From assembly GCA_963553085.1 (NCBI GenBank), contig CAUVLR010000001.1:5342-69341 (forward strand): a stretch of DNA of 64,000 nucleotides, in the 5' to 3' direction. Below the pieces are notes generated by a model that worked only from the letters and a program-made list of their open reading frames with translations, did no database searches and was not told where the DNA came from. Origin of the DNA: an uncultured Candidatus Saccharibacteria bacterium (GTDB lineage: Bacteria > Patescibacteriota > Saccharimonadia > Saccharimonadales > Saccharimonadaceae). Position 1 is the first letter of the stretch. Each line of letters opens with the position of its first letter. Made by a program: the position numbers and the translations under genes. Below, piece after piece: positions 835 through 40,684 of this stretch.

Positions 835-876
835 TTGCCCTCTCTTCTATGATCCGCCCTCGTAACTCACAGCAAA

Positions 877-939
877 GTCTGTAATTTCCCTATACGCATA
901 GCTTGAGTGGGTACGAGTAGTACAGGTGGTCTCCTCAGG
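877..939 (-). repeat. Arm repeat: inverted solo copy of the elA 3' arm and terminus (left inverted repeat of composite locus 1)
   Basis: TCTGTAATTTCCC...GTACGAGTAGTACAGGTGGTCTCCTCAGGC is the near-exact reverse complement of 1243-1306. Confidence 0.85.
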
Positions 940-962
940 CTCTGCTACTTAGCAACCCCCAC

Positions 963-1063
963 TCTTCGTCTCGTCATCATTTCCTTCAGACCCGCCCGGC
1001 TGGCTCGTGCACTGCTGAGCTTCAAGCGTGCACAGTCTTCAGGAAATGACTGACGCAGACGAA
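963..1063 (+). repeat. hpB copy 1: 101-nt imperfect hairpin repeat
   Basis: CTTCGTCT..CATTTCCTTCAGAC pairs with GTCTTCAGGAAATG..AGACGAAG. Apical stem is GTGCAC/GTGCAC. Four more copies are in the window. Confidence 0.85.
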
Positions 1064-1100
1064 GGACGAAAGACACCCTTTGAGTTGTAAGGAAAGCTAT

Positions 1101-1306
1101 GTCTGTAATTTCCCCGGTCTCATTCCATAGTTGGACCTCAATCTAAGTAAACATTCCCGGGTACGAGCAGTACAGTGTGGTTGACGAAGGCTGTTGATAT
1201 ATCAGTAAGCTAGCAATTGCCAGTGGTACTCGCTACGTCGCCAGGCCTGAGGAGACCACCTGTACTGCTCGTGTGTCAAAGAGTTATGTGTATGGGGAAA
1301 TTACAG
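1101..1306 (+). repeat. elA copy 1 (short form, 206 nt): structured repeat closed by its termini
   Basis: TCTGTAATTTCCCC (5' end) pairs with GGGGAAATTACAGA (3' end). Inner arms GGTACGAGCAGTACAGTGTGGT and ACCACCTGTACTGCTCGT also pair. Confidence 0.85.
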
Positions 1307-1354
1307 ATATGATATATAAATGAAAGATTAACGAAGAAGCTTAATGCGCACATC

Positions 1355-4106: not shown

Positions 4107-7100
4107 ATGAAAGTTGTTGACCGGGTCAGTAAGATCAGACCTATTAAGTCGTGGTGTGGTCTGAAGCAAGCCCTCACCGCCACCACGCTAGCTCTCTTCA
4201 GCGTGCTATTGATGACCAGCCCGGTGATAGCTGTCTGCCAGAGAGACATCACCGGCAAACAGACCGGCCAGCCGGTCAGCGAGGATCACACCAGCAATGT
4301 CATCCAGCTGATTCATCTGGCTCACACCGCCAATACATTTAACACCGAGTATGGTGCGTATAGCAATAAAGATAGCAACTATGCCGGTACGACCATCGCC
4401 CTACTCAGGAACGGCAAGGTGTACAGCTGGGGCAACAATATCTATGGTGGCGTTGGCAACAATACCACTTGTACTATGACCAGCAACGTTTACCTCAAAC
4501 GGCCACCCTGCTACTATAACCAGCCACAAGATATCACTAAATATTTCGGCAACGACAAGGTGGCCAAGCTAGCTAACCGTAGCCAACGAGCTATCGCTAT
4601 CACCGAGTCGGGCAAGATATACCGCTGGGGACAACCTCCGCTAGACGAAGATGGAAAGGATATAATCAGACACCCCACTCAATATCAGGAACTAGCTCCT
4701 TACCATATCATCGGCTATAGCGGGACCGACCGCGGAGGTCCGGGGACTGTCGGTGGAGGTTGGTATGCTTACAGCGACGACACTATCTTTGACATAAGCG
4801 ACGACAAAGTAAGCATGATCAAGCCTCAGCTGAACGGAGCCACTATCAGATCAGTCGACTGTGTTTGGCGCACAAAGGAGTTCCAGCCTGACAATCCGGA
4901 TAAAGACGAGGGTGGTCTCTATGTACTCACTTCCACCAATAAGCTCCTCAGAGTTCAGGACGACGGCAAGACGACCGAAATAACCAACTCTGAAATAGCC
5001 AAGCGAGGCGGATTTAAGCAGATCTATCATTACTACGCCATCGACCATCAAGGTGGACTCTGGCTCTATGGTCATCCCAAATACGAAGGTGAGTCTACTC
5101 TAGTCGACATGCATCCTAGGCTGGTCGGCTCGATCGGCACCAATCTACCGGCGTTGCAAGAGTTCGTTAACTCTAACGGCGTAGAAATCTCTTCATCTAC
5201 TAAGCGAGACCCTATTGTCCGAGGTGTCGACAATCATTTCTACTATCTGGCCACCTACTACACCAATGAATCAAGACTAATGCTCAATCCTATCGATATC
5301 ACCGCCAGTACTAAACACCAGAATATCAGACTGTTTCATGGTGATGCAGGTGCCGTGAATGACAAGACGCCACTAGAGATAGCGACAGACTACAGCAATC
5401 AATTATTCTATGATTACTCCTTCATCCCCGAGGGCAGCGATACTGACCTAGTCTGTACTACCGCTGAAGGTTTGTCGATGCACCATGAGATTATAGGCGA
5501 AGATCCTTCCCTCAATCTCACCCCGACCCTCCCCTTACGCCAGCAACCGAAACAAGATAAAACCGGCGACACTGCTCCGACCTGTGTCAAGATACCTTCT
5601 GATAAACCGAAGCCGGATCCGATCAAACCGCCCACGCCTAATACACCTAATCAGCCCAAGCTGCCCGGCGTACCTAATACCGGACTAAGAGACGACAAGG
5701 TCGTTCAGCTGGTTCACTCACCCGCCACATTTGACTACTATGGCGAGCAGAAGCATGGTATGGGCACCTGGCGAGACCAAGACTACGCCGGCACGACTGT
5801 CGTGCTGACCGAAAGCGGCAAGCTGTATGCCTGGGGTAATAACATTGCGGGCGGAGTCGGTAACGGCACCGGCTACGGTGCGACGTCTAACAAGAAGCCG
5901 CCCGTCTACTACAGTGACCCCCAGGATATCACCAGATTCTTTAACGGCGACAAGATCGTCAAGCTGGTAAATCACCGCCATGCGTTTGCAGCCATCACCA
6001 GCTCCGGCAAAGTATACTACTGGGGACACGGACTGTTCGATAAAGACAGGAAACCCATCATACATCCGGTCACACTGAGCGAGCTGTCACCCTATCACAT
6101 CATTGGCTTCGGTAGAGACATAGATCCCGGCAACTATAACGGCTCCTCTTCCTATGTAGCTAGTCATCCTGACAACATGAGTGATTGTCTTGCCTTTAGC
6201 AAGGATACCATCTTTGTTCTAGATTGTTACAGGTATACAAGCCGGCTCCAGTACCACGACGAGGCAAAGAACCGGATCAAGCCACAGCTCAGTAGTGGCG
6301 CCACTATCCTCGACGTCGATCACATCACGCGTCGCACCCCCACAGCAGAAGAGCCCGAGCCGGATAAGGGAGGCTACTACGCCCTAACCTCCGATCACAA
6401 GTTGCTGAGGGTGCTGGAAGACGGTACCACCAGCGAGATAACCAACTCGGAGATCAAAAAGCGAGGCGGGTTCAAACAATTATCTTATGCCGGTCATTAT
6501 GCCATCGACAGACAGGGTGGTCTATGGTACTACGGCTACCGAGAGGGCAATGACTCTATCCACGATATGGCAAAGATATCAACTAGTGGTAAATTACCTC
6601 ACCTAGATAGCTTCTTTAATGTTCTCGGACCAGTCGCCCGTGGTGCCGATGGAGCGATCTACGCCATAACTGACACGCACATCAATAGCCCCAATCAGTA
6701 CTTCGTGGGCAGGAGCGTTGACCCGATAGACGTCGGCACCCTGCTCGGCGGTAAGCAGAAGATTAAGCTCCTCAGTGGCGAGGTAGAGACAAGGTACCGG
6801 GGAGATTCAGGCTATACTAATGACTACTACCCTCCCAAAGATCTTCCCTTCTATGACTTCGCCTTCGTGCCACAGAGTCAGCCTGATACTGTCTGTGTCG
6901 GGCTGAGTGGCGCCGCCTACAACCGAATCCATGGCGAGAATAGAGGTCCTCTATTTGAGACCATCCAGCCGGTCGATGGCACACTACCATCCACCTGCGT
7001 CAAACTGCCACCGTGGAATGACGGCAAGTCAAACCCGTCACCCGTACCCGGCGCACCCACTACGTCCAAAGCGCCCGGTGTACCTAATACCGGCAGCCAG

Positions 7101-8657
7101 CCTGACCCGATCATTCAGCTAGTCCATATCCCGGCTGTTATTAACGGGGCAATTAATGGAAACTCTGAAAATCTCACAGCTAAGGATACCGACTACGCCG
7201 GCACGGTCATGGTGCTGACTCAGAGTGGCAGAGTATTTGCTTGGGGCAATAACTACGCCGGCAGTGTCGGCGTTGGTACTGCCGGGTTTAAAGTTCCCTA
7301 CCCCGAATCCGTTAAGAGCCGGCGAGAGGGTCATCCCGAATATTACGATACACCTCAGGAGATCACTAAATACTTTGGCGACGATAAAGTGGTCAGGATC
7401 GGACGCTACGGTCGTACTAGCGTCGCCGTTACCCAGTCGGGCAAGCTCTATCAGTGGGGCTGGAGCCACAACCAGCCCTGGGATTGGTACGACCGACTCG
7501 AGAATATAACTTGGACGGAGCCCACTCCCGACCCCACCCCATCCCTCGATAAGGTCACCGGTATAGGTGGGAGTTATGGTGATATCTATTCCGGTGGAGG
7601 TTGGCTGGCTCATGGCGACGACACCATCTTCACTAAGACTAGCACTAGCCAGCTGAAGGACTTTGGAGACAAGCTAAAGCTATCGCTTAATGGCGCCACC
7701 ATTAGGTCAGTCGACTACGTTGATTTCAACGGCAGGATAGCACAGAACCCTCAACTAGGTATCGACCAGTCCTTTAAGACGGGAGTCTATATCCTCACCT
7801 CGACCAATAAATTGCTCCGAGTTAAAAATGATGGTACTACCACCGAAGTAACCAACGACAAGATTAAGAGTCGAGGTGGCATCAGACAGATCGCTAATCA
7901 GTATGCCATCGACAACCAGGGTGGACTGTGGTACTACGGCGTCGGCATGAGTAAAGACCAAATTTACGATATGTCGCTCAAGACGCTAGGTGGCATCACA
8001 CCTCTACCTCGGCTAAGAGACATCGTCGGTGTCGATCTAATTGAGGATTTACACATGCTTAAAGATGGCTGGCAAAGACCCTGGTCATCTAGTGTACTAG
8101 TCCGCAGCATCGACGGACATATCTACGATGTATCACCGGTTCAAACCAAGTTTTCCACCGAAGACGGTGGCTACCCCGAGCGACGCTTCGCCCTAACCGA
8201 TGTGACCAAACTACTCGGTCACGATAAGATCAAACTCTTCGACGGCAAGATCCACAGCACAGGAGACACTAAGCCGGTAGATAATGAGGCGCCCGGACTA
8301 TACGGCTACTCTTACGTCCCGGAGTCGAAGCTAGATACCGTCTGCACTGTTATCAGTGGTGTAGCTAGCGCCAACGCCAGTCAAGCTCAATCACTCTATG
8401 GTCATGGTCATCCGCTGAATGTTAGCGTCACCACTACCAAGCTAGTTAACGACGCCTTCGCTCCGACCTGCGTCAAGTTGCCGCCCTTACTCACACCGGA
8501 CCCCAAACCCGGCCCAACACCAAATCCGAAGCCGACGAAACCGACTAGCGGTATCAAGGCGCCCTTTGACCGGCCCAAAGCACCCGGTGTACCTAATACC
8601 GGTAGTGAGCCACTCTTTATGAGCGTACACCGAGCACCAATCTTCGCTCGGCGCTGA
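4107..8657 (+). CDS. Secreted or surface protein made of three tandem RCC1-like propeller modules, each ending in P-N-T-G
   Basis: 1516 aa with an N-terminal signal or anchor segment. RCC1-type blades are present (GKVYSWGNNIYGGVGN, GKLYAWGNNIAGGVGN, GRVFAWGNNYAGSVG). Modules span about aa 60-526, 527-996 and 997-1499. GGAGG Shine-Dalgarno before the ATG. Confidence 0.75.
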   Translation: MKVVDRVSKIRPIKSWCGLKQALTATTLALFSVLLMTSPVIAVCQRDITGKQTGQPVSEDHTSNVIQLIHLAHTANTFNTEYGAYSNKDSNYAGTTIALLRNGKVYSWGNNIYGGVGNNTTCTMTSNVYLKRPPCYYNQPQDITKYFGNDKVAKLANRSQRAIAITESGKIYRWGQPPLDEDGKDIIRHPTQYQELAPYHIIGYSGTDRGGPGTVGGGWYAYSDDTIFDISDDKVSMIKPQLNGATIRSVDCVWRTKEFQPDNPDKDEGGLYVLTSTNKLLRVQDDGKTTEITNSEIAKRGGFKQIYHYYAIDHQGGLWLYGHPKYEGESTLVDMHPRLVGSIGTNLPALQEFVNSNGVEISSSTKRDPIVRGVDNHFYYLATYYTNESRLMLNPIDITASTKHQNIRLFHGDAGAVNDKTPLEIATDYSNQLFYDYSFIPEGSDTDLVCTTAEGLSMHHEIIGEDPSLNLTPTLPLRQQPKQDKTGDTAPTCVKIPSDKPKPDPIKPPTPNTPNQPKLPGVPNTGLRDDKVVQLVHSPATFDYYGEQKHGMGTWRDQDYAGTTVVLTESGKLYAWGNNIAGGVGNGTGYGATSNKKPPVYYSDPQDITRFFNGDKIVKLVNHRHAFAAITSSGKVYYWGHGLFDKDRKPIIHPVTLSELSPYHIIGFGRDIDPGNYNGSSSYVASHPDNMSDCLAFSKDTIFVLDCYRYTSRLQYHDEAKNRIKPQLSSGATILDVDHITRRTPTAEEPEPDKGGYYALTSDHKLLRVLEDGTTSEITNSEIKKRGGFKQLSYAGHYAIDRQGGLWYYGYREGNDSIHDMAKISTSGKLPHLDSFFNVLGPVARGADGAIYAITDTHINSPNQYFVGRSVDPIDVGTLLGGKQKIKLLSGEVETRYRGDSGYTNDYYPPKDLPFYDFAFVPQSQPDTVCVGLSGAAYNRIHGENRGPLFETIQPVDGTLPSTCVKLPPWNDGKSNPSPVPGAPTTSKAPGVPNTGSQPDPIIQLVHIPAVINGAINGNSENLTAKDTDYAGTVMVLTQSGRVFAWGNNYAGSVGVGTAGFKVPYPESVKSRREGHPEYYDTPQEITKYFGDDKVVRIGRYGRTSVAVTQSGKLYQWGWSHNQPWDWYDRLENITWTEPTPDPTPSLDKVTGIGGSYGDIYSGGGWLAHGDDTIFTKTSTSQLKDFGDKLKLSLNGATIRSVDYVDFNGRIAQNPQLGIDQSFKTGVYILTSTNKLLRVKNDGTTTEVTNDKIKSRGGIRQIANQYAIDNQGGLWYYGVGMSKDQIYDMSLKTLGGITPLPRLRDIVGVDLIEDLHMLKDGWQRPWSSSVLVRSIDGHIYDVSPVQTKFSTEDGGYPERRFALTDVTKLLGHDKIKLFDGKIHSTGDTKPVDNEAPGLYGYSYVPESKLDTVCTVISGVASANASQAQSLYGHGHPLNVSVTTTKLVNDAFAPTCVKLPPLLTPDPKPGPTPNPKPTKPTSGIKAPFDRPKAPGVPNTGSEPLFMSVHRAPIFARR

Positions 8658-11027: not shown

Positions 11028-11035
11028 GCATTATC

Positions 11036-11062
11036 GCCACTACCTCAGGTAGTGGCTTTTTT
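11036..11062 (+). terminator. Rho-independent terminator after tRNA-Val
   Basis: GCCACTACC-TCA-GGTAGTGGC followed by TTTTTT. Confidence 0.8.
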
Positions 11063-11231
11063 ACGCCTATTTACCCCAGACTTTTCCACAGAAAATTGCA
11101 GCTTCCCTTCAGCGACCTCATCATCTCTCACTACTGATACTGCCCACTATTCCCGCCTTTTCCACAGATTATTATGGCTTATTCGGTCGTCATTATGCAC
11201 CCTATGATATATTCACCACCATCGGCTACCA

Positions 11232-11260
11232 TTGACATACAGTGACGGCTAGGGTATAGT
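11232..11260 (+). promoter_or_regulatory. Near-consensus sigma-70 promoter of an orphan transcription unit
   Basis: TTGACA (11232-11237), 17-nt spacer, TATAGT (11255-11260). Confidence 0.55.
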
Positions 11261-11261
11261 A

Positions 11262-11506
11262 ACAATGCTTATGAACAAGAGTTCAAAGGCGAAGAGCCAG
11301 CGCTCATCTCGCCTAGCACAGTTCCACATTTACTTTGAAAGTATCTAGGTTAGTCGCTTGAGCGATGATCACCACACTTTCCTAGCTCCCAGCGCAGAGC
11401 TGCGAGGCTGCACCGGGAGCTAGATAGTATCTCAGGAACGACCAAAAACTAGTACATTAGTTGCCCGCCCCACCATGGAGAAATCCAAAAGTGGCGGGTC
11501 TTTTTG
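11262..11506 (+). ncRNA. Candidate ~240-nt noncoding RNA, or leaderless micro-ORF transcript, of unknown family
   Basis: Bounded by the promoter at 11232-11260 and a hairpin plus T-run at 11463-11506. Contains several stems, for example CTAGCTCCC...GGGAGCTAG. The only ORF is 25-27 codons. Confidence 0.3.
11463..11506 (+). terminator. Terminator-like hairpin with T-run
   Basis: CCCGCC..(loop)..GGCGGG followed by TCTTTTT. Confidence 0.55.
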
Positions 11507-11532
11507 TTGTTCGACACCTTTAGCCCCTCATT

Positions 11533-11633
11533 CTTCGTCTACATCATCATTTCCTTCAGACCCGCCTGGCTGGCTCGTGCACTGCTGAGCTTCAAGCGTG
11601 CACAGTCTTCAGGAAATGACGATGCAGACGAAG
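11533..11633 (+). repeat. hpB copy 2
   Basis: 101 nt, near-identical to 963-1063. Confidence 0.85.
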
Positions 11634-11670
11634 GACAAGAGACACCATTTGAGGCGGAAGGAAGGTTATG

Positions 11671-11975
11671 TCTGTAATTTCCCTAGTCTCATTTCTTAAT
11701 CTAATCTCAATTAAAGCAGGCATTCCTAGGTACGAGTAGTACAGTGTGGTTGACGAAGGCTGTTGATACATCAGTAAGCTAGCAATTGCCAGTGGTGCTA
11801 GCTACGTCGCCAGCCTGTCCAGCTGATGCTAGTTAGGCTAACCTGACATACACAGAGCGTTATTACACCCTAAGTCCTCTTTGCGGTTGTTAGTATTAAG
11901 TATCGTGCTGGAGCCTGAGGAGACCACCTGTACTGCTCGTACACTATAGGGCTATACGTGGAGGGGAAATTACAG
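11671..11975 (+). repeat. elA copy 2 (long form) with nested modI at 11814-11913
   Basis: Same termini and arms as copy 1. An extra ~100-nt stem-loop (CCTGTCCAGC...GCTGGAG) lies between CGTCGCCAG and CCTGAGGAG. Confidence 0.85.
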
Positions 11976-12010
11976 GTGCCAACGGCAATCACGGGCTTTA
12001 CCCTCATATT

Positions 12011-17830: not shown

Positions 17831-17849
17831 CATGACTCACCCACACATA

Positions 17850-17912
17850 CTGTAATTTCCCCTTCACGCATAGCTCGAGTTGGTCCGAATAGCACAGGTG
17901 GTCTCCTCAGGC
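17850..17912 (-). repeat. Arm repeat, inverted solo copy (locus 3)
   Basis: CTGTAATTTCCCC...CACAGGTGGTCTCCTCAGGC, homologous to 877-939. Confidence 0.8.
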
Positions 17913-17935
17913 CTACTGCTTAGTCAGCCCTCATT

Positions 17936-18036
17936 CTTCATCTACATCATCATTTCCTTCAGACCCGCCTGGCTGGCTCGTGTGCTGCTGAGCTTCAAGC
18001 GCACACAGTCTTCAGGAAATGATCAGTAGAGTGAAG
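17936..18036 (+). repeat. hpB copy 3 (variant carrying compensatory substitutions)
   Basis: Apical stem is GTGTGC/GCACAC instead of GTGCAC/GTGCAC. Confidence 0.85.
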
Positions 18037-18082
18037 GACAAAAGACACCCTCTTATGTGCTAAGGGCTATCTAATACTTTAT

Positions 18083-18205
18083 ATGGGGGGCTGATAGATT
18101 CATCACATCAACCTCAGACCTGGCGCTCATAATGTACCACTGGCGATTGATTACTTGTAGGACATTGATTAGTCTTCGGTTGTCTGTGATGAATCCGCCC
18201 CCCAT
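18083..18205. repeat. palC: 123-nt palindromic insert, the only copy in the window
   Basis: ATGGGGGGC..GATTCATCACA pairs with TGTGATGAATC..GCCCCCCAT. Lies between hpB copy 3 and an elA fragment. Confidence 0.7.
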
Positions 18206-18219
18206 GAAAGCCTTCCTGC

Positions 18220-18275
18220 GGGTAAAGAGCAGTACTTGATGGTTAACGAAGACTGTTGATACGACAGTAAGCTAG
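18220..18275 (+). repeat. Degenerate fragment of the elA 5' arm
   Basis: GGTAAAGAGCAGTACTTGATGGTTAACGAAGACTGTTGATACGACAGTAAGCTAG aligns with the elA core GGTACGAGCAGTACAGTGTGGTTGACGAAGGCTGTTGATA..CAGTAAGCTAG. Confidence 0.65.
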
Positions 18276-18284
18276 ATGATACAC

Positions 18285-18488
18285 ACGTAATTTCCTCGGT
18301 CTCATTGCTTAGCCAACCTCAGTCTAAGGTAGACACTCCTGGTACGAGTAGTACAGTGTGGTTGACGAAGGCTGTTGATATAGCAGTAAGCTATCCAGTG
18401 CACGTGGTAGTTTATACGGTGCCAAGCCTGAGGAGACCACCTGTACTACTCGTACGAACCCGGATTATATGTGGAGGGAAATTACAGA
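18285..18488 (+). repeat. elA copy 3 (short form)
   Basis: Termini GTAATTTCCTC / GAGGGAAATTACAGA and conserved arms. Confidence 0.85.
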
Positions 18489-18576: not shown

Positions 18577-19530
18577 ATGACCCATGACAAAGACGCTAAA
18601 AATGATGAATTTTACCTCGCCGACCTGATCATGGACTTCGTCGAGTACATCGAAATAGAGCGAGGCCGATCCATCCGCACCGCCGAGAACTACAACCTGT
18701 ACATGGACCGACTGGTCGAATTCGCCGGCAACATCCCCGTCAGCCAAATCACCGACGAGCTGGTCAGAAAATATCGTCTGTGGCTGAACCGCTTCGTCGA
18801 CGAACAAGGGCGTGAGCTCTCGCTCATCACCCAGAGTTATCATCTGATCGCTCTGCGGAGCTTTCTCAAATATTGCTCGCAGCGAGACATCCCCACCCTG
18901 GATGCCAGCCGGGTCAACCTACCCCGCACTCAGAAGAAACAGGTCTCCTTCCTACTGGCGGAAGAGGTGGCTCGGCTATTCGACGCCATTCCGCTTGACC
19001 AACCTAGCGGACTGCGAGACCGAGCCATCATCGAGCTGCTCTTCTCGGGTGGCATGCGAGTCAGCGAGCTATGTAGCATCAATTGCAACCAGCTCAACCT
19101 GGATCGGCGAGAATTCACCGTCAGGGGCAAGGGTGGTAAAGACCGCCCCATCTTCATCAGTCAATCAGCCGCTGATACGATCGAGCGATATCTGCAGACT
19201 AGGTCGGACGGGCTCAAGCCGCTCTTTCTCAATAACTCTCGCAATATCGTCGAGAGTGATGACGTCGACCTCAGCGAAGCTCGCCGTCTGACTCCCCGCT
19301 CGATCCAGCGAATCGTCAGTAAATATGCTCAAGCAGCTGGCATCACCAAGCATGTCACTCCCCACACTCTGCGCCACTCTTTCGCTACCGACCTGCTGAT
19401 GAATGGCGCCGACCTGCGCTCGGTCCAGTCGATGCTGGGGCACAGCAATATCGCCACCACCCAGATCTACACTCACGTGACCGACCCTCATCTCAAGGAA
19501 GTACACGACAAATTTCAGAGCAACCTGTAA
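18577..19530 (+). CDS. xerC: Tyrosine site-specific recombinase, XerC/XerD family
   Basis: 317 aa. SAM-like N-terminal domain, [38 protein letters not shown] (R-H-R-Y catalytic pattern). Confidence 0.9.
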
Positions 19531-19610: not shown

Positions 19611-20894
19611 TTACTTACACCTGTCTTCACCCGTGTCGTACTGTACTTCTATGTCTTTACAGACTTTACCGTTAGTATCGATGACATACTCCGGCCACCA
19701 GTTCGTACTGTCGGCATTCTTGTCAAAGCTAGGCTTGAGCCGAGCCTGAATCCGACTAAAGGAATCAGATGATCTACCGGTCACATCAACCAGTGGCTGA
19801 ACGCCGTCGAAGTAGAGCTTGTTCTTGCCCTGGTATGCCGTGATCTTGAAGTGAGTACTACGATAGATGGCATTGATACGCAGATAATATGTTTTATCAG
19901 TATAAAGTGACTCTTTATTGAATATCGTTTTACAGGCATACTCTTTATTACTGCCGCTTTGACAATATGCTTCTACGATCGGCACACCCTTATGATATTG
20001 AGAGTTTGGCGCAATCTTATCCTTGTTACTAGATGGGTATTGAGGCTGGTAGTTACCCAAACGATAACCGCCCTTACCATTACCGCTCTCCGACGGACGC
20101 AGAGTCAGAGCGGTGTCGCTACCTGTCAGGTCGTTCAAATTAAAGCCACCTTTAGGCACACCAACTCGCTCGACCCGAAGGACTGCCGGTCGGTTGCTGC
20201 TATTCCAAGTAGTGGTCGTAGGTAGACCGGTGCCATTAGCGCCATTCATGTCAGCCGGGTTATCACCATCGTTGCCGGTAACGTTGCGGTGCCACTCGAT
20301 CTCTAGTCTATCAATGACGGCGGCTTGGTTATTTGCGTCCACTACCCTGAGCGGTACGATGACCGACTTGCCCAAGTTATTCACTATCCCCTGGTAGTTG
20401 TCAGTCTTAGTGGCGATCTTTAGACACTGATAATATTCGTTATTCTCGTTTTTGCCGCCACTATTATCACCGACTCTAACTCGGTAGCCTCTACCATTAT
20501 CCTCTTTTTCGACCTTGAAGTTGCTTGATTGCGTGATATCTACTTGCTCAAGTATCTTGTCACAGTCCCTACCCTCCAACTCGGTTGAAAGTTTACCAAT
20601 CACCTCAGAGCATAAATTTTTATCAGCCTGGCTAGCATAGTCACCACTCGCTTGGCGCTTGTTATAACAGTAGACGATCAAGCGCTTAGCATCCTCAACG
20701 CCCGACTCAGCCGCAATCTTAGCTGACGACTGGAGAGAGTCATTTAGCGCCTGGCGAGACGCTGAGATGACCACGAAGGTGAAGCTGACGGCGATCGCCG
20801 CAAAGAGCATCATAAACATAGCCACGGTCACCATCGAAGCTTGGCCCGACTCACGATCACCCGGTCGACACCGAGATACTAAGCGAGAAATCAT
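19611..20894 (-). CDS. PilX-like pilus assembly protein (last gene of the minor-pilin operon)
   Basis: 427 aa. N-terminal hydrophobic helix [22 protein letters not shown] resembles PilX_N. Start overlaps the upstream stop (ATGA). Confidence 0.5.
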
Positions 20895-21628
20895 ATCTTA
20901 CTCCTTTCGTAAACAGTGAAGGTATACTTGGCAAATGAGCAATATTGGTTCTTAGCCGGGGTGAATGTGTCTGTCGAGTCAACTATTCCGTTATCATTTT
21001 TATCTATCCACTCACCACATTGCCAATAAGAGTTGGGGTTATTCTGACTGGCATCAATATGAACGATTCCGGTGTTATCGGTATAAGCTTTGATCGGTCG
21101 GTTCGCCCCCTCGGTCGAGACTACTACGCTGATGGTTAGCAGAGGCGCATCAGTCTTTTGCTCCACTTTGAACTCCTGGATCGTTGCTCCTCGCCCCAAC
21201 AAGATATGAACATTGGAATCGGCGCTCGGCAGCCCCGGCTGCTTCTTAGGGTTGCTGCAGTATTCACCTTTCGGGTCGTCGATCCGAGCCAGCCGGATCG
21301 GCGTCCCATCAAGATAGACATTATCCTTCTCGTTATGGTCATCAATATCCTGCTGCGTATTCCACAGGTAAGACACACCGTTGATGCACATCCGACGATT
21401 GACAGTATCTACCGTCGCTGCCGGGCTGTAGCGAGCCTTATCACCGATATCGCTATTCATCTGCTGACCGGCTTGGTTGATCTGAGCCAGCCAGATGCCT
21501 TTATTATACGAACGGACGATATTGACCGTAGTAGCAGCCAAGATGAAGATGATGAAGCCAACGAAGATCAGAGCCGTCGACACCTCGATCAAGGTAAAAC
21601 CGCTCTGTTTGTCTGATAGTCTAGCCAT
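20891..21628 (-). CDS. Minor type IV pilin with prepilin-type N-terminal cleavage/methylation domain
   Basis: KQSGFTLIEVSTALIFVGFIIFIL. Confidence 0.75.
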   Translation of the reverse strand: MARLSDKQSGFTLIEVSTALIFVGFIIFILAATTVNIVRSYNKGIWLAQINQAGQQMNSDIGDKARYSPAATVDTVNRRMCINGVSYLWNTQQDIDDHNEKDNVYLDGTPIRLARIDDPKGEYCSNPKKQPGLPSADSNVHILLGRGATIQEFKVEQKTDAPLLTISVVVSTEGANRPIKAYTDNTGIVHIDASQNNPNSYWQCGEWIDKNDNGIVDSTDTFTPAKNQYCSFAKYTFTVYERSKI

Positions 21629-21655
21629 GTCTTATCCTTTCCTATCCTTCACTAC

Positions 21656-22264
21656 TTACTTATAGTACACCCGTACGTTAGATTCCATTCGCCCTGAGCC
21701 CGGCTGTTGCGCCGCATGTGGTGTCCAGCAAGCCCGAACGTAGAAGTCGATATAGCCGGGCATATCGCCCTGCCCATCGTGCTTGTCACCCTCGATCCAG
21801 ATACCTCGGCTATCTTCATTACCATTACCATTTTTACTACCCGCTGCTTCCGGCTGTCCGTAGACGTTATTCGTCAGATCAGTGGTTTTTGCCGGATTAA
21901 GCTTATGTATTTCTACCGGCGATGTACCGCCACCCACACTCAGGTAGAAGCCGCCATTACCAATCTCGCAGCCATTTTGACCAAGCTTTCCATTTGGCTG
22001 AGTATACTTATTAATGATCTTATCGTAAGTATCCTTATTGGTGACCGGATCGTCAAAGACGTAGCGCAGTAGCTCCGCCTGGCTACTCAGGCTAGCTCGC
22101 ACCGAAGTCCGCTCGACCGCATTTGACACCCCCATCAATCCCCGATTAATGACCGCCAGGCTAGCCGCCAGCATTAGCCCCAGCACCGCCATCGCCACAG
22201 TCACCTCGACTAATGTGTCGCCCCGTTCTGCTTGATTTCTCTTCATCCTTGCCCTCATCATCAT
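21656..22264 (-). CDS. Pilin-like protein with a divergent prepilin signal
   Basis: ERGDTLVEVTVAMAVLGLMLAASL. Confidence 0.6.
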   Translation of the reverse strand: MMMRARMKRNQAERGDTLVEVTVAMAVLGLMLAASLAVINRGLMGVSNAVERTSVRASLSSQAELLRYVFDDPVTNKDTYDKIINKYTQPNGKLGQNGCEIGNGGFYLSVGGGTSPVEIHKLNPAKTTDLTNNVYGQPEAAGSKNGNGNEDSRGIWIEGDKHDGQGDMPGYIDFYVRACWTPHAAQQPGSGRMESNVRVYYK

Positions 22265-23196
22265 TATTGATCCAAATTACTACACGCCTCGGCTACATCT
22301 TTGGGCCCCACATTGTTCACCCCGCCGTCCCAGTTCCAGTTACCGCCCGCTACGTTAAAGTTGTTTGACGTACCCGCCGGGTTATCACCGCCGGGTATAC
22401 AGATGACACCGCCGGGGTAGCCTAGGCCGCTATTGCGTACCGCCAATACTACTTTGTCATCTTGCGACATATTAGCCTTAGCTACATTTAGGTTTATTTG
22501 CTTCAGACCATTAACCGGCGCATTGGGCACGTTATCTAAGACCACCGCCGGGACGACCACCAATGAACCGTCGACCGGACTGCGCATGATGGCAATATTG
22601 TTGGTTTGATTAGGATTCGGATTGCTGGGATCAGAATCATATAGACTCATATTAGTATTGCCAATCAGCCAAACCTTCTCCAATTTATTGCTGCCTATTT
22701 GCTTGATCGTAGGGTTAAGACCGGCGTCATTCCCGCTAGTATCAGTCAAGGCATATAGCGTCACATTACTGTCCTTACTGTCCTTCAGGTTATCAAAACC
22801 CGTCTTGGTGCTGTCCGGCCACTTAGAGCCCGTCCCCACCACAGCAATGATAAAGCTGACTTGGACACGACCGACCTCGCCGTCATTATCAAAGGTCAAC
22901 AGACGCCCAATAATGTAGCAGTCGTTGTTATTGCCGGGGATAGCCGTATTCTTACACTCTGATACGGGCCCCATCTTGTTAGTGCTCACATCACCCTCAG
23001 TCAGGCGAGAATTGATGCCGGAGCGAACCTCGTTATACTGCTGCTTGATGAAAGACTGGGTAGTGACCAGCGAATCACGGAAGCGACCTCGCCCGACCAT
23101 AGCCGCCAAGCCAAAGGTCAGTAAGACCAGTGTCGCCGACATGGCGATGGCTAGCCCGGTCTCAAGTACGGTATATCCACCCTCTCGCTTCATCAA
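22264..23196 (-). CDS. Pilin-like protein with a divergent prepilin signal
   Basis: REGGYTVLETGLAIAMSATLVLL. Coupled to its neighbours by overlapping stop and start codons. Confidence 0.6.
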   Translation of the reverse strand: MMKREGGYTVLETGLAIAMSATLVLLTFGLAAMVGRGRFRDSLVTTQSFIKQQYNEVRSGINSRLTEGDVSTNKMGPVSECKNTAIPGNNNDCYIIGRLLTFDNDGEVGRVQVSFIIAVVGTGSKWPDSTKTGFDNLKDSKDSNVTLYALTDTSGNDAGLNPTIKQIGSNKLEKVWLIGNTNMSLYDSDPSNPNPNQTNNIAIMRSPVDGSLVVVPAVVLDNVPNAPVNGLKQINLNVAKANMSQDDKVVLAVRNSGLGYPGGVICIPGGDNPAGTSNNFNVAGGNWNWDGGVNNVGPKDVAEACSNLDQ

Positions 23197-26100: not shown

Positions 26101-26303
26101 GGCACTTCAAGTTCTGTGTATGGGTGAGTTGAATCTTTGGTCAGGTTATATCTATCATCCGGGCTACTGGGGCCGACATTGGACAGCGCCATGGTGACCG
26201 ACCCACGTGCTATAGATATAATCATTGTAACTGCCACAGCTAGGAACACTCTATTTAGCCAGACAAGCCAGCTCTTACGATTAATAATCTTTGCTTCCAT
26301 CAT
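23193..26303 (-). CDS. Large (1036 aa) N-terminally anchored protein in the minor-pilin operon; candidate pilus-associated adhesin
   Basis: Single N-terminal TM or signal segment, rich in W/Y/G/N/D, no recognisable catalytic motif. Call based on operon context only. Confidence 0.45.
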   Translation of the reverse strand: MMEAKIINRKSWLVWLNRVFLAVAVTMIISIARGSVTMALSNVGPSSPDDRYNLTKDSTHPYTELEVPVYFKDKPDSDVGVKVFDIHRSPGDWSSGAVFNGGARIYGDGHFTVNTGDFWYDSSTGYWKARIRASLIGSLFQFKLQLDRSDGIIAYATGRASQASIRYNDRMGDIIGHERKEMQMALPCSFTEPTHLGGPGSPYHLRLYDLDTWYPWWGTNNGKQPLSVSVYDESDNGRRVAYYDGNDPKYQCGQLGAGDDGVYGSHGCMGENGVLYVEMMMYPDHKYKIVIDNVWKNNLIEYELPFDNIFYNITCEPKVDMRTTVDFTKKPTGDSKKPRTGYKWLSSYGKYNSKENDKSIAEVMGYLGANKPNTPNTLWTWTGNYPHVKGSLPKAVMDNNHHKAELYPGDELTWWFRAYNSSGYIVPEEMKMDFTNLREGWIDPRPLGQSWNQTEPKPEEGSNWFRPADRGGPLNGSDHRQIMWGCYDWGGECYDNVLSFNRRISEGEAVTRHYRYVVKPGDAGQTLCQWLRMSWEYNGWKQRLTPKACVYIPYHYPPPPDDGPKDKSSGIVPTTIAKQDKVQAGDTVTFDYMVENPTGPTKTRPFRYHNYTFILKRGASLPADKDDRPTYPEFWDGKGVSCRGGRSLGGQYWSGQIDPCVGWDTGRDDEDVVLNVGGSNMRSKSYGIYGSGWLAQPGDKICSYIAVDNNWSVRNDQSADTFRASNIACAVVTKSPNLNLSGSDSYANKGFQGASVSKSDKVPGTDKRGSYSQYGLLTGDTDGVVNFGSAGYTTAYDKYRSLACKLSYANTDKAQGDCNDLKWLKPAGLLKKSLSMPSSTNTTPLSGGSNVDLGGLQSGNYKAGSGSLKIHGDLGKGTHITIFAEQADVTITGKIDAYAGPYANLSDIPSFTIMAKNIKVNPGVSLITGTYVAKDHFESCKDAKNPADLGMLPNSKCQHKLKVNGAIVSENSPIFRRTFGAGNLQEDNQWKTDRISSTAEWINYTPNLWLTTSNGSSGNQLEGLTTTQVTNLPVRY

Positions 26304-26312
26304 AATAATTAA

Positions 26313-35533: not shown

Positions 35534-35554
35534 CGGGACGCAAACATTCATAGC

Positions 35555-35760
35555 AGAGGCAAAGTCTGTAATTTCCCTCTATACATAGTCCTATGGCATA
35601 CGAGTAGTACAGGTGGTCTCCTCAGGCTTGGCACCGTATAAACTACCACGTGCACTGGATAGCTTACTGATATATCAACAGCCTTCGTCAACCACACTGT
35701 ACTACTCGTACCCAGGAATGTTTACTTAGATTGAGGTCCAACTATGGAATGAGACCGGGG
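35555..35760 (-). repeat. elA copy 4 (short form, opposite strand)
   Basis: The reverse complement is nearly identical to copy 1 over the termini, the arms and the variable 5' region. Confidence 0.85.
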
Positions 35761-35797
35761 AAATTACAGACATAGCTTTCCTTACAACTCAAAGGGT

Positions 35798-35898
35798 GTC
35801 TTTCGTCCTTCGTCTGCGTCAGTCATTTCCTGAAGACTGTGCACGCTTGAAGCTCAGCAGTGCACGAGCCAGCCAGGCGGGTCTGAAGGAAATGATGA
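35798..35898 (-). repeat. hpB copy 4 (opposite strand)
   Basis: The reverse complement is near-identical to 963-1063. A degenerate arm remnant follows at about 35923-35950. Confidence 0.85.
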
Positions 35899-35992
35899 CG
35901 AGACGAAGAGTGAGAGATTGGCTAGGTAGTAGAGTCGAGGAGACCATACAGCCTGCTCCGGGCTACAAAGCTTTTAGGGGCTAGCCTGTCCA

Positions 35993-36943: not shown

Positions 36944-36995
36944 TCAGAGCCAGTCGTATGGTCTCCTCAGTTCTACTGCCTAGTCAGCCCTCATT

Positions 36996-37096
36996 CTTCA
37001 TCTGCATCATCATTTCCTTCAGACCCGCCTGGCTGGCTCGTGCACTGCTGAGCTTCAAGCGTGCACAGTCTTCAGGAAATGACGATGCAGACGAAG
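36996..37096 (+). repeat. hpB copy 5
   Basis: 101 nt, preceded by an arm remnant (GTATGGTCTCCTCAG, about 36965-36981). Confidence 0.85.
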
Positions 37097-37135
37097 GACA
37101 ACATGTACCCTTAGCGTGATTAAAGGTACTATGTG

Positions 37136-37421
37136 TCTGTAATTTCCCCGGTCTCATTTCTTAGTCTAGCTTCAGTCAGAGATGAACACTCCTAGTACGA
37201 GTAGTACAGTGTGGTTGACGAAGGCTGTTGATACAGCAGTAAGCTATCCAGTGCACGTGGTAGTTTATACGGTGCCAACCTGTCCAGCACCCAGCAGATG
37301 CGTAAGTCTATTCAGGTATAATTTAAGCTCATATTACACCATAGTTCTTCTTACGCAACGCCAGCTCTATGTATCCTGCTGGGATGCTGGAGCCTGAGGA
37401 GACCACCTGTACTACTCGTAC
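37136..37421 (+). repeat. elA copy 5a (long form, nested modI at 37279-37392, 3' terminus missing)
   Basis: Conserved 5' terminus and both arms are present. The GGGGAAATTACAG end is absent. Confidence 0.8.
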
Positions 37422-37488
37422 AGGGAGCTATATATATGAAAGGAGACCACACGCCCTACTCTGAGCTACAAGACTTAATATTTATACG

Positions 37489-37806
37489 TATGTAATTTCC
37501 CTGGCCTCATTCCATGGTCTGCCGTCAATCAAGCAAAGCATTCCTAGGTACGAGTAGTACAGTGTGGTTGACGAAGGATGTTGATACAACAGCAAGGTTA
37601 CAATTGCCAGTGGTAACTTACACGTCGCCAGCCTGTCCAGCACCCAGCAGATGCGTAAGTCTATTCGTATACAATTTAAGCCTATATATGCCTCGGCTCT
37701 TCTTGTACAATACCAACTTTATGCATCCTGCTGGGATGCTGGAGCCTGAGGAGACCACCTGTACTGCTCGTGTGTCAAAGAGTTATGTGTATGGGGAAAT
37801 TACAGA
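37489..37806 (+). repeat. elA copy 5b (long form, nested modI at 37632-37744)
   Basis: Complete termini and arms, in tandem with copy 5a. Confidence 0.85.
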
Positions 37807-37845
37807 CCATGCTCTGAGCCACAAGCTTTCGTAAGTAATTATACC

Positions 37846-37904
37846 TAAGGAGACCACCTGCACTACTCGTACACTATAGAGTTATGCATGGAGGGAAATT
37901 ACGG
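37846..37904 (+). repeat. Solo elA 3' arm and terminus
   Basis: AAGGAGACCACCTGCACTACTCGTACACTATAGAGTTATGCATGGAGGGAAATTACGGA. Confidence 0.75.
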
Positions 37905-37924
37905 ATTCCGTTTATGCTCTGATG

Positions 37925-38809: not shown

Positions 38810-38815
38810 AAGCAC

Positions 38816-38824
38816 ATTATAGCA
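38816..38824 (-). promoter_or_regulatory. Extended -10 box TGCTATAAT, 6 nt upstream of the ATG at 38809
   Basis: Read directly. Confidence 0.5.
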
Positions 38825-38825
38825 G

Positions 38826-38862: not shown

Positions 38863-38889
38863 ATAGCCTAGACTAATACTTAGGTAAGA

Positions 38890-40678: not shown

Positions 40679-40684
40679 CGGTCT

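What the first reader, a model, noticed from the sequence alone, without database searches (positions are those of the whole stretch)
877..1306. Composite structured repeat family (inverted arm + hairpin hpB + element elA) at five loci
The same three-part unit recurs at 877-1306, 11533-11975, 17850-18488, 35555-35950 (opposite strand) and 36965-37905.

- Part 1 is a ~63-nt arm that is the reverse complement of the elA 3' end.
- Part 2 is a 101-nt imperfect hairpin, hpB.
- Part 3 is a 205-320-nt element, elA. Its ends (TCTGTAATTTCCCC / GGGGAAATTACAGA) pair, and its inner arms (GGTACGAGYAGTACAG-T-GTGGT / ACCACCTGTACTRCTCGT) also pair.

Together with the modI copies, these repeats occupy about 3 kb, roughly 5% of the window. 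All copies are intergenic. There is no conserved ORF, no clear target-site duplication, and no transposase, reverse transcriptase or cas gene in the window. I do not recognise the sequence as a named RNA family or IS/MITE family. Both a non-autonomous foldback element and a multi-copy structured RNA are possible.
Basis: seen in the sequence. Interest (0 to 1): 0.8.

Follow-up and report, generated by a model that had tools for sequence, protein, structure and literature searches.

The report
Mosaic nested-hairpin repeats of oral Saccharibacteria
About 4.6% of this stretch of an oral Saccharibacteria (TM7, Nanoperiomorbus-like) genome is an apparently undescribed family of non-coding, nested-hairpin repeats that sit at the same intergenic sites in dozens of related species, are repeatedly flipped and reshuffled there, and keep a hairpin core that looks like a binding site for an unknown factor.

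Summary
All five loci hold the same modules, far above chance: an inverted R-end "arm", hairpin hpB, element elA and extra R-ends.

- **Databases.** Nothing matches Rfam, phages, plasmids or viral contigs.
- **Proteins.** The window encodes no transposase, reverse transcriptase or Cas protein. A Xer-like tyrosine recombinase gene starts 89 nt from locus 3.
- **Distribution.** The conserved 24-mer was found only in Candidatus Saccharibacteria assemblies (at least 120 stretches, about 57 assemblies), and often breaks contigs.
- **Basic unit.** It is a hairpin: long stem, tandem G·A, a 5-bp helix and a conserved apical domain. Four different stem sequences carry it. Covariation is strong: 141 compensatory cells against 36±5 in shuffles.
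- **Turnover.** The elements occupy orthologous intergenic sites, but module content differs between species. 51 of 157 orthologous pairs have opposite orientation, at any flank identity from 88 to 99%. One exact inversion between inverted arms was read base by base.
- **Not found.** No target-site duplication, conserved promoter or guide-like complementarity.

Best reading: a lineage-specific, non-autonomous mosaic palindromic repeat family (ERIC/BIME/NIME-like), reshuffled through its own inverted repeats. A multi-copy structured RNA remains a serious rival. This is a new member of a known kind, of moderate interest.

The parts
859..939 (-). Locus 1 'left arm': an R-end in inverted orientation, made of the terminal extension, the T end, a spacer and the S5/X5 core.
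   Evidence: (I13, I14).
955..1067 (+). Locus 1 hpB hairpin.
   Evidence: (D3).
1102..1307 (+). Locus 1 elA, short form. The type A hairpin unit is at 1145-1295.
   Evidence: Covariance model R1 scores 158.6 bits.
11525..11640 (+). Locus 2 hpB. This locus has no left arm.
11671..11976 (+). Locus 2 elA, long form. It carries the hairpin insert modI at 11813-11911. The element tail runs on to about 12010.
   Evidence: 75.3 bits.
17849..17912 (-). Locus 3 left arm (inverted R-end).
   Evidence: (I12, I16).
17928..18043 (+). Locus 3 hpB.
18071..18217 (-). Locus 3 type D hairpin unit. It has a different long stem but the same GA-AGACU...GGUCU-GA junction and the GCCAGUGGUA...CGCCAGG apical signature.
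   Evidence: Model R1 hit of 32.7 bits, E = 3.7e-7. The sequence was read.
18284..18488 (+). Locus 3 elA, short form. A truncated unit lies just before it at 18215-18283.
   Evidence: 159.7 bits.
35548..35770 (-). Locus 4 elA, short form, with its terminal extension. It starts 15 nt after the rpsT stop codon.
   Evidence: 165.4 bits; gene calls.
35801..35958 (-). Locus 4 hpB together with the variant 'R2' arm (35934-35951).
   Evidence: I21.
36947..37103 (+). Locus 5 inverted R2 arm (36947-36970) and hpB (36988-37103).
37136..37472 (+). Locus 5 first elA, long form with modI at 37279-37391. It ends in an R2-type core (37440-37472) instead of a T end.
   Evidence: (60.8 bits).
37489..37806 (+). 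Locus 5 second elA, long form with modI at 37632-37743.
   Evidence: 66 bits.
37807..37922 (+). Locus 5 conserved linker (CCATGCTCTGAGCCACAAG...) followed by an extra solo R-end (37843-37905) and its tail.
   Evidence: (D5).
18577..19530 (+). Xer-like tyrosine recombinase gene next to locus 3. It is a candidate trans-acting factor only; no link to the repeats is shown.
   Evidence: Pfam Phage_integrase, E = 1.3e-45. NCBIfam XerC/XerD about 238 bits, below their cut-offs; XerA_Arch 228 bits against a cut-off of 220. The only recombinase among the locus ORFs.

Best explanation
This is a lineage-specific family of non-coding, non-autonomous mosaic palindromic repeats in oral Saccharibacteria of the Nanoperiomorbus group. 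It is of the same general kind as ERIC, BIME/REP, neisserial NIME/Correia and pneumococcal BOX elements.

**Building block.** The basic unit is a hairpin of about 115-150 nt. It has a long stem, tandem G·A mismatches, a 5-bp helix (NGRCU/RGYCU) and a conserved apical domain that tolerates hairpin inserts (modI).

**Assembly.** These units are concatenated and nested with hpB, solo R-ends and linkers. The result is a composite carrying inverted repeats at three nested levels: T ends of 13-16 bp, the S5 core of 16-22 bp, and whole arms of 63-85 bp.

**Shown.**
- The composites have sat at fixed intergenic sites since before the species split.
- They are rebuilt there by inversion, deletion, duplication and module exchange, with breakpoints inside the inverted repeats.

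**Inferred.**
- The rearrangements arise from recombination or polymerase template switching between the arms of DNA hairpins or cruciforms.
- The invariant core survives because a trans-encoded factor, not yet identified, recognises it in a folded single strand, and this factor mobilises or binds the element.
- The element needs no enzyme of its own and does not regulate its neighbours in an orientation-dependent way.
For: **Family membership and specificity**
- Motif counts are far above chance.
- At least 120 stretches were found, all in Candidatus Saccharibacteria assemblies and many at contig ends.
- Covariance model R1 scores 120-165 bits on true copies. It gives no hit in 93 unrelated metagenome contigs, about 0.65 Mb.

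**Non-coding and non-autonomous**
- No conserved ORF.
- No transposase, RT, Cas, Nop or TnpB in the window.
- The genes that the elements flank are housekeeping genes: holA, rpsJ, rpmB, rpsT.
- No multicopy protein in 720 kb of element-bearing loci.

**Mosaic, ordered architecture**
-.

**Hairpin requirement**
- Four stem types surround one junction and apical domain.
- 97.3% of cells are paired, against 92.0±0.2 in shuffles.
- 15 pairs change on both sides, against 10.0±1.4.
- 141 compensatory cells, against 36±5 in shuffles and 5-16 in slid controls.

**Residence at orthologous sites**
- Flanks are 86-97% identical to the window.
- One empty allele exists, L108.

**DNA-level reshuffling**
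- An exact inversion between the left arm and the last R-end: L047 against L101.
- An inversion between the S5 arms, in L056.
- Whole-elA flips bounded by the T ends.
- 51 of 157 orthologous pairs are opposite, about 30% in every identity bin.
- Ten further genomes with identical L28 show ten different architectures at site 1, three of them flipped.
- Paralogues within the genome (93% over 348 nt) share variable-region sequence that the ortholog at the same site (L015) lacks, which points to conversion.

**No orientation rule**
- No bias against GC skew (61 of 118) or against neighbouring genes.
Against: - No mobilising enzyme or autonomous copy was found, so the way the family spread to many sites is not explained.
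- There is no target-site duplication.
- Only one clean presence/absence polymorphism was seen. Recent transposition is therefore not demonstrated.
- The strictly conserved tandem G·A, which would be destabilising C·U on the other strand, argues for a top-strand fold.
- The excess of G·U over A·C mismatches on the top strand of elA, about 150 against 31 cells, and the bit-score gap of 160 against 25-30 between strands, point the same way. An RNA explains this more simply than double-stranded DNA does.
- The covariation rests on few independent events, essentially three stem switches.
Confidence: 0.45

Rival explanations
1. The hairpin unit, possibly together with hpB as one branched RNA of about 350-550 nt, is a multi-copy structured non-coding RNA transcribed from the top strand. 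The tandem G·A, 5-bp helix and apical domain would form a protein- or RNA-binding platform. The DNA rearrangements would be a side effect of its palindromic genes.
For: - Helix covariation across four stem types with an invariant junction and apical domain.
- Tandem sheared-type G·A conserved in all types; it is favourable only on the top strand.
- Invariant U·G wobbles, and G·U far more common than A·C in elA.
- The top strand folds better: -82.6 against -75.3 kcal/mol.
- Inserts are tolerated only at one apical position, where modI, itself a hairpin, sits.
- hpB always lies upstream of elA on the same strand.
Against: - No conserved sigma-70-like promoter or terminator in the unit.
- No Rfam relative.
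- hpB mismatches are strand-symmetric, 39 G·U against 33 A·C.
- Orientation relative to neighbouring genes is free and flips often.
- Many copies are truncated or chimeric.
- At least 9 R-cores in 64 kb of a very small genome is unusual for an RNA gene.
Confidence: 0.3
2. The conserved cores are recombination sites, as double-stranded DNA or as folded single strands like integron attC or CTX-phage attP, for the Xer-like tyrosine recombinase encoded beside locus 3. That enzyme would invert, excise and re-insert the modules. The result would be a multi-locus inverton- or shufflon-like system, or a Xer-exploiting mobile hairpin.
For: - Frequent inversions bounded by the conserved inverted repeats.
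- No target-site duplication and no transposase.
- A Xer-like recombinase 89 nt from locus 3, with the adjacency kept in the ortholog L036.
- The hairpin has a bulged T, an internal non-Watson-Crick 'bubble' and a variable terminal structure. In outline this resembles folded attC sites (my knowledge of integrons, not tested here).
Against: - The recombinase scores as an ordinary Xer, and an FtsK with a gamma domain is present. It is probably the chromosome-dimer resolvase.
- About one gene in six in the window borders an element, so the adjacency could be chance.
- The one mapped internal inversion crossed over in the perfect 16-bp S5 repeat, not at the bubble.
- No promoter lies inside the invertible segment, and the flanking genes are housekeeping genes.
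- The rpmB promoter lies outside the mosaic and does not vary.
Confidence: 0.1
3. The elements are classical MITEs, internally deleted derivatives of a DDE-transposase insertion sequence that sits elsewhere in the genome or is now lost. They would be mobilised through their terminal inverted repeats.
For: - Terminal inverted repeats of 13-16 bp, extendable to 63-85 bp.
- Small size, intergenic position and many copies.
- One filled/empty polymorphism with a possible TTAGC duplication.
Against: - No consistent target-site duplication at two fully ended composites or in 110 distinct end flanks.
- No autonomous copy in the window, in 720 kb of related loci, or in plasmid, phage or viral collections.
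- The strongest conservation is internal (stem, junction, apical domain), not only terminal.
- Copies are mostly at orthologous sites.
Confidence: 0.1
4. The units are single-strand-DNA elements handled by an HUH (Y1) enzyme, like REP/REPIN with RAYT or IS200/IS605-derived palindrome-associated elements. Such an enzyme recognises imperfect hairpins with bulged bases and leaves no target duplication.
For: - No duplication.
- Strand-specific hairpin features, including a conserved bulged T.
- Clusters of units in alternating orientation.
Against: - No Y1 transposase, RAYT or TnpB in the window.
- The units are much longer than REP sequences (20-40 nt) or IS608 end hairpins.
- The elements have true terminal inverted repeats.
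- No leading/lagging-strand orientation bias, 61 of 118.
Confidence: 0.07

Closest known systems
ERIC / IRU elements of Enterobacteriaceae
   Same: Imperfect palindromes in intergenic regions, with size variants caused by inserts at fixed internal positions. They occur in either orientation, at sites shared between related species, have no associated gene, and show compensatory changes in the stem. The properties of ERIC are from my own knowledge.
   Different: The sequences are unrelated. ERIC is a single 127-bp palindrome, whereas here several hairpin modules are nested and concatenated. Stems are exchangeable around a conserved apical domain. The host is a candidate-phyla-radiation phylum.
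BIMEs (REP mosaics) with RAYT, and neisserial NIMEs/Correia elements
   Same: Mosaic intergenic clusters of short palindromic units in alternating orientation, separated by conserved linkers. They make up several percent of the genome and mark hot spots of rearrangement.
   Different: The units here are 5-10 times longer than REP or dRS3. No RAYT or Piv-like gene was seen. There is no TA duplication or IHF-site signature as in Correia elements.
BOX elements of Streptococcus pneumoniae
   Same: A modular build (boxA, boxB repeated, boxC) resembles arm, hpB, elA repeated, R-end repeated. Both are predicted to form stable hairpins and have no known cognate transposase.
   Different: The modules and sequences differ. 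Frequent flipping at orthologous sites is, to my knowledge, not a described feature of BOX elements.
Folded single-strand recombination sites (integron attC; CTX-phage attP(+)) and Xer-exploiting elements
   Same: Strand-specific hairpins with conserved unpaired bases or bubbles and a variable terminal structure. Structure is more conserved than stem sequence. A Xer-family recombinase is nearby.
   Different: There is no integron integrase, no cassette array and no R-box consensus (GTTRRRY). The mapped crossover lies in the perfect repeat rather than at the bubble. The recombinase looks like the housekeeping Xer.
Invertons and shufflons; hairpin-associated minute inversions in chloroplast DNA
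   Same: DNA segments bounded by inverted repeats are found in both orientations among very close relatives.
   Different: No promoter or coding segment lies inside, and no dedicated invertase was shown. As in chloroplast hairpin inversions, the flips may need no specific enzyme.

Membership tests
Any Rfam RNA family (including hammerhead, HEARO/omega RNA, 6S, Y-like RNAs) | A covariance-model match at or near the family's gathering score. | tested here: not met
   Only tRNAs pass at gathering score. At E up to 10, the two loci scanned (1 and 5) gave only weak matches far below gathering score: miRNA-precursor models on the hpB palindrome and, at locus 5, two C/D-box snoRNA models (16-31 and 11-14 bits against cut-offs of 96-150 and 45-50).
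Hammerhead ribozyme (type II topology) | A CUGANGA ... GAAA core with stem II in register, an A15.1-U16.1 pair and a UH cleavage site. | tested here: not met
   The sequence has CUGAGGA and CGAA. However, stem II pairs only in the rod-like register, the base after GAA is G, and no hammerhead model hits at E up to 10.
MITE (DDE-transposon derived) | Terminal inverted repeats. | tested here: met
   The ends are TCTGTAATTTCCC / GGGAAATTACAGA, extendable to GTAGCTCAGAGCAAAG....
MITE (DDE-transposon derived) | A target-site duplication of fixed length flanking each copy. | tested here: not met
   No shared direct repeat at two fully ended composites. No target motif beyond the element's own extension in 110 distinct flanks. 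One ambiguous TTAGC at site 2.
MITE (DDE-transposon derived) | A cognate autonomous insertion sequence with the same ends. | tested here: inconclusive
   None in the window, in 720 kb of related loci, or in viral, plasmid or phage collections. Whole genomes could not be scanned.
REP/BIME with RAYT; IS200/IS605-derived palindromic elements | Short (20-40 nt) palindromes or subterminal hairpins, no terminal inverted repeats, an HUH Y1 enzyme in the genome, and a lagging-strand bias. | tested here: not met
   The units are 115-320 nt and have terminal inverted repeats. No Y1 or TnpB domain in the window. Orientation against GC skew is 61 of 118. Genome-wide absence of the enzyme was not testable.
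Inverton / shufflon (programmed inversion) | A segment bounded by inverted repeats, found in both orientations. | tested here: met
   L047 against L101 is an exact inversion. 51 of 157 orthologous pairs are opposite. Site 1 is flipped in 3 of 10 genomes. All comparisons are between genomes, not within a population.
Inverton / shufflon (programmed inversion) | A dedicated recombinase and a promoter or coding segment inside the invertible DNA. | tested here: inconclusive
   There is one Xer-like gene beside locus 3, but it looks like a housekeeping gene. No conserved promoter lies inside. The rpmB promoter lies outside the mosaic.
Integron attC site | R''/R' boxes (RYYYAAC / GTTRRRY), cassette arrays, and an IntI with the extra domain. 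| tested here: not met
   No such boxes appear in the alignments. The elements are dispersed between housekeeping genes. The integron-integrase model scores 148 bits against a cut-off of 265.
TIGR-Tas / box C/D-like guide arrays | Regular arrays of about 36-nt units or stem-loops with two short spacers, next to a Nop-domain protein. | tested here: not met
   The definition comes from PMC12045711. Here there is no array periodicity and no Nop domain. The variable regions are not complementary to their own flanks.
ERIC/BOX-like intergenic mosaic palindromic repeats (descriptive class) | Multi-copy, non-coding, intergenic, hairpin-forming and modular, with no linked gene. | tested here: met

The most novel reading that the evidence does not exclude
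The conserved hairpin unit is not junk. It would be the functional core of an undescribed system in ultra-small episymbiotic bacteria. The unit comprises exchangeable long stems, tandem G·A, a 5-bp helix and an apical domain, together with hpB.

Two forms of this reading remain open:
1. A strand-specific structured RNA, or RNA-protein scaffold, present in many copies.
2. Folded single-strand recombination sites that let a Xer-family recombinase move and flip DNA at dozens of intergenic sites. That would be a hairpin-based mobile or phase-variation system with no transposase.
Probability: 0.2. Interest if true: 0.8.

Novelty: new member of a known kind. Interest (0 to 1): 0.55.

Why it matters
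Saccharibacteria and other candidate-phyla-radiation bacteria are regarded as extremely streamlined.

- **Genome content.** A repeat family taking about 4.6% of a 64-kb stretch, conserved in more than 50 species-level assemblies, shows that even these genomes carry and tolerate, or use, dynamic repetitive DNA.
- **Assembly quality.** The repeats break metagenome assemblies: many hits lie at contig ends. This affects the quality of assembled genomes for a common oral organism. The identical L28 protein is listed in 1743 blocks of the assembly collection.
- **Strain typing.** The intergenic mosaics vary so much between strains that they could serve as typing markers.
- **If the core binds a factor.** If the conserved hairpin core proves to be an RNA, or a recombinase substrate, it would be a new handle on gene regulation or genome plasticity in an episymbiont that is hard to study genetically.

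Tried and rejected
1. **Rfam.** Only tRNAs at gathering score for the whole window. At permissive thresholds, the two loci scanned gave only spurious miRNA-precursor hits on hpB and two weaker snoRNA hits.
2. **Hammerhead.** The core contains CUGAGGA...CGAA, but the register is wrong and no model hits.
3. **TIGR-Tas / box C/D guide arrays.** I read PMC12045711. The architecture differs and there is no Nop protein.
4. **Guide-RNA idea.** The variable regions share no more sequence, on either strand, with their own flanks than with foreign flanks (mean longest match 7.7 against 7.8 nt).
5. **Invertible-promoter idea.** No conserved -35/-10 pair on either strand of 29 full units. TTGACG-19-TAAGCT is weak and is absent from type B units.
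6. **Autonomous copy.** ORFs bracketed by the elements are holA, rpsJ and a phosphoribosyltransferase. Protein clustering gives only syntenic orthologues. phmmer with the Xer protein finds only its ortholog.
7. **Phage or plasmid origin.** No hits.
8. **Orientation rules.** No bias with GC skew or with neighbouring genes.
9. **Target-site duplications.** None.
10. **Closely spaced T/T' pairs as a dif-like site.** None.
11. **Metagenome scan.** The loose pattern GCTGTTGATA-N40-56-CTGAGGA gave mostly chance hits. Only 8 true contigs came back, with no new stem type.
12. **Strain-level polymorphism through holA and rpsT look-ups.** Only the same strain was returned.
13. **Literature.** Six full-text searches found no description of these repeats.
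Full report
**1. The observation**

The sequence at all five reported places was read and searched for repeats. The modules are there as described.

- A 63-nt R-end occurs five times in direct orientation (D5). It also occurs inverted at 878-939 and 17850-17912 (I12-I16).
- A hairpin of about 115 nt, hpB, occurs five times (D3).
- elA has pairing termini (TCTGTAATTTCCC / GGGAAATTACAGA) and pairing inner arms.
- The inner-arm 24-mer occurs 9 times against 0 in shuffles. The terminal 12-mer occurs 13 times against 0.26.
- elA and hpB fold far better than shuffles, z = -6.2 and -5.9.
- The loci cover 2962 nt, 4.6% of the window.
- Real genes end before and start after every locus. ORFs inside the repeats are not conserved.

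- Only loci 1 and 3 have the canonical arm.
- Loci 4 and 5 have a variant arm, which I call R2.
- The R-end continues about 16-19 nt beyond ATTACAGA, as CTTTGCTCTGAGCTAC.
- Locus 3 holds an additional divergent hairpin unit on the other strand.

**2. Where it comes from**

Every hit lies in Candidatus Saccharibacteria assemblies from oral samples, including Ca. Nanoperiomorbus periodonticus. By my count about 57 different assemblies are involved. Many hits lie at contig ends, which is what assembly-breaking repeats look like.

Large parts of the window align to these loci at 86-97% identity. The window is therefore from a member of this clade.

Nothing similar is found in viral contigs, phages or plasmids.

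Six full-text literature searches found no description of such repeats in Saccharibacteria or the candidate phyla radiation.

**3. Anatomy**

Motif maps of all loci show an ordered, oriented arrangement:
- an optional inverted R-end;
- hpB;
- one or two elA;
- zero to two further R-ends, joined by conserved linkers.

hpB is always upstream of elA on the same strand.

Fifty-one complete elA copies fall into size classes of about 206, 305 and 320 nt. The longer ones carry modI, a hairpin of about 100-112 nt with a stem of up to 20 bp. It is inserted at one fixed point of the apical region and occurs only there.

Copies are about 80% identical overall. Even so, the stretch GGTACGAGTAGTACAGTGTGGTTGACGAAGGCTGTTGATA and its partner GCCTGAGGAGACCACCTGTACTACTCGT hardly vary.

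The long stem runs straight through two tandem G·A/A·G mismatches (UUGACGAAGGCU over AGCCUGAGGAGACC) and has a bulged T.

**4. The hairpin unit and covariation**

Searching for the apical core alone showed that the same junction and apical domain carry four unrelated long stems:
- type A, the canonical stem;
- type C (AAGAGCAGGGCG-A-TATGGTT / GACCATA-CGCCCTGCTCT);
- type B (CAGAGTAGCTCACCTAAGCTTCC / GGAAGCTAGGTGAGCTACTCTG);
- type D, more divergent, at window 18071-18217 on the minus strand.

In all of them a GA on each strand flanks a 5-bp helix NGRCU/RGYCU, and that helix itself covaries (G-C to A-U).

Results on 80 distinct units:

| Measure | Observed | Control |
|---|---|---|
| Cells paired | 97.3% | 92.0±0.2 in shuffles |
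| Pairs changed on both sides | 15 of 34 | 10.0±1.4; 0 of 500 shuffles reach 15 |
| Compensatory cells | 141 | 36±5 in shuffles; 5-16 in slid controls |

On type A copies alone the signal is weak because the stem hardly varies. The covariation therefore rests on a few stem-switch events. Each event changed many pairs in a compensated way.

hpB also shows compensated changes (GTGCAC...GTGCAC to GTGTGC...GCACAC, and two pairs at its base), but with many recombinant mismatches.

A covariance model of the unit scores 159-165 bits on the three short copies in the window, 61-75 on the long ones, and 24-32 on the reverse strand. It finds nothing in 93 unrelated metagenome contigs.

**5. RNA or DNA?**

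A stem that covaries is expected for an RNA. It is equally expected for inverted repeats that must stay complementary as DNA hairpins.

Points favouring a fold of the top strand:
- The conserved G·A pairs would be C·U on the other strand.
- There are invariant U·G pairs.
- G·U is roughly five times as common as A·C in elA.
- The top strand has the better folding energy.

Points against a simple RNA gene:
- No conserved promoter or terminator.
- hpB mismatches are strand-symmetric.
- Orientation relative to neighbours is free: 17 antisense against 8 sense among co-directional contexts, and 61 of 118 against GC skew.
- Many copies are truncated or chimeric.

I could not settle this question with the tools at hand.

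**6. Behaviour in evolution**

The composites sit at orthologous intergenic sites in species whose flanks are 88-99% identical, yet their content differs.

- **Exact inversion.** L047 and L101 differ by an exact inversion of everything between the left-arm core and the last R-end core. The outer ends and the flanks are unchanged.
- **Inner inversion.** In L056 only the segment between the 16-bp S5 arms is inverted, and the bulged T travels with it.
- **Whole-element flips.** Downstream of rpsJ, whole elA copies are flipped between their T ends.
- **Frequency.** Of 157 orthologous pairs, 51 are opposite. The fraction is about 30% in every identity bin, including 97-99%.
- **Site 1 in more genomes.** Ten further genomes encode an identical L28. 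Their M50-peptidase/rpmB spacers are 322-804 nt long, with many different architectures (only two pairs alike) and three flips. The mosaic ends exactly at the invariant rpmB -35 box.
- **Concerted evolution.** Two copies in this genome are 93% identical over 348 nt and share variable-region sequence that the ortholog of locus 1 in L015 lacks, which points to conversion.
- **Empty site.** One clean empty site exists. Ca. N. periodonticus lacks the whole composite at site 2.

**7. What is absent**

Pfam on essentially all window proteins gives housekeeping genes, type IV pilus genes, toxin-antitoxin pairs and RCC1-repeat proteins. It gives no transposase, reverse transcriptase, Cas, Nop, TnpB or Y1 enzyme.

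The one recombinase is a Xer-like tyrosine recombinase 89 nt downstream of locus 3. It scores like XerC, XerD or XerA, and an FtsK with a gamma domain is also encoded. It is therefore probably the dimer resolvase. About one gene in six in the window borders an element, so the adjacency may be chance.

Other negatives:
- No recombinase other than its ortholog lies in 720 kb of element-bearing loci.
- No target-site duplication.
- No guide-like complementarity.

**8. Interpretation**

The best-supported reading is a lineage-specific, non-autonomous mosaic palindromic repeat family, in the class of ERIC, BIME/REP, NIME/Correia and BOX elements. Its nested inverted repeats drive its own inversion, deletion, duplication and module exchange.

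What is shown:
- the family and its specificity;
- the hairpin constraint;
- residence at orthologous sites;
- rearrangements bounded by the inverted repeats.

What is inferred:
- Flips arise by recombination or template switching in DNA hairpins. This is known for short inverted repeats; see for example PMC8604942, seen as an abstract only. Hairpin inversions in chloroplast DNA are from my own knowledge.
- The invariant junction and apical domain are the recognition structure for an unidentified trans-acting factor.

The main rival is a multi-copy structured RNA. Weaker rivals are a Xer-driven inversion or mobility system, a classical MITE, and an HUH-type single-strand element.

**9. Verdict**

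The finding is real. It is not an artefact, it matches no known family by sequence, and I found no description of it. In kind, though, it belongs with bacterial intergenic mosaic repeats. I rate it a new member of a known kind, with interest 0.55.

About one chance in five remains that the hairpin core is a functional RNA or a recombinase substrate of a new sort, which would deserve much more attention.

Noticed in passing
window 18577-19530 (+); also 51836-54136 (-): A Xer-like tyrosine recombinase gene starts 89 nt after repeat locus 3. An FtsK gene with a gamma domain is also in the window. The recombinase is below the XerC and XerD cut-offs but above the archaeal XerA cut-off, which suggests a single-recombinase Xer system.
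   Followed up: partly
window 11232-11505 (+): A candidate small RNA gene lies between tRNA-Val and repeat locus 2. It has a near-consensus promoter (TTGACA-17-TATAGT, 11232-11260), about 200 nt with no ORF, and an intrinsic terminator (11463-11505). It is about 96% conserved in related genomes. No Rfam or tmRNA match. The whole 11028-11512 stretch folds with z = -3.1.
   Followed up: partly
window 18071-18217 (-) and 18215-18283 (+): Locus 3 contains a fourth-type hairpin unit (stem GGGGGGCGGATTCATCACA...) on the opposite strand, and a truncated unit.
   Followed up: partly
window 4107-8657 (+) and 59298-60848 (+): A 1516-aa protein with RCC1-like repeats is built from internal units of about 1.4 kb (direct repeats D4, D6, D8-D10, D12). 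A 516-aa paralogue lies 52 kb away. These are probably variable surface proteins.
   Followed up: no
window 30330-30901 (-); 27187-28279 (+): A MazE/MazF toxin-antitoxin pair, and an HTH-SocA/Panacea antitoxin-like gene followed by a 136-aa ORF with no family match.
   Followed up: no
window 19611-26891 (-) and 37925-46566 (-): Two gene clusters related to type IV pili: pseudopilin-like N-methyl proteins including a 1036-aa protein with no family match, and PilD, PilC (T2SSF), PilT/PilB ATPases, PilO and PilM. Repeat loci 3 and 5 border these clusters.
   Followed up: no
L243-L252, positions about 700-1500 (site 1 in ten other genomes): The identical L28 protein is listed in 1743 blocks of the assembly collection, so the organism group is very common. 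The spacer upstream of rpmB ranges from 322 to 804 nt with many different module arrangements (only two pairs alike). It could serve as a strain-typing marker.
   Followed up: partly
hpB internal loop (e.g. window 991-1005) and elA apical 3' side (e.g. window 1238-1248): The invariant 15-nt bulge of hpB (CCGCCUGGCUGGCUC) is complementary over 7 nt to GCCAGGC (short elA) or GCCAGCC (long elA) in the apical domain. This could be a tertiary or intermolecular contact. There is no covariation to test it, because the hpB side never varies.
   Followed up: no
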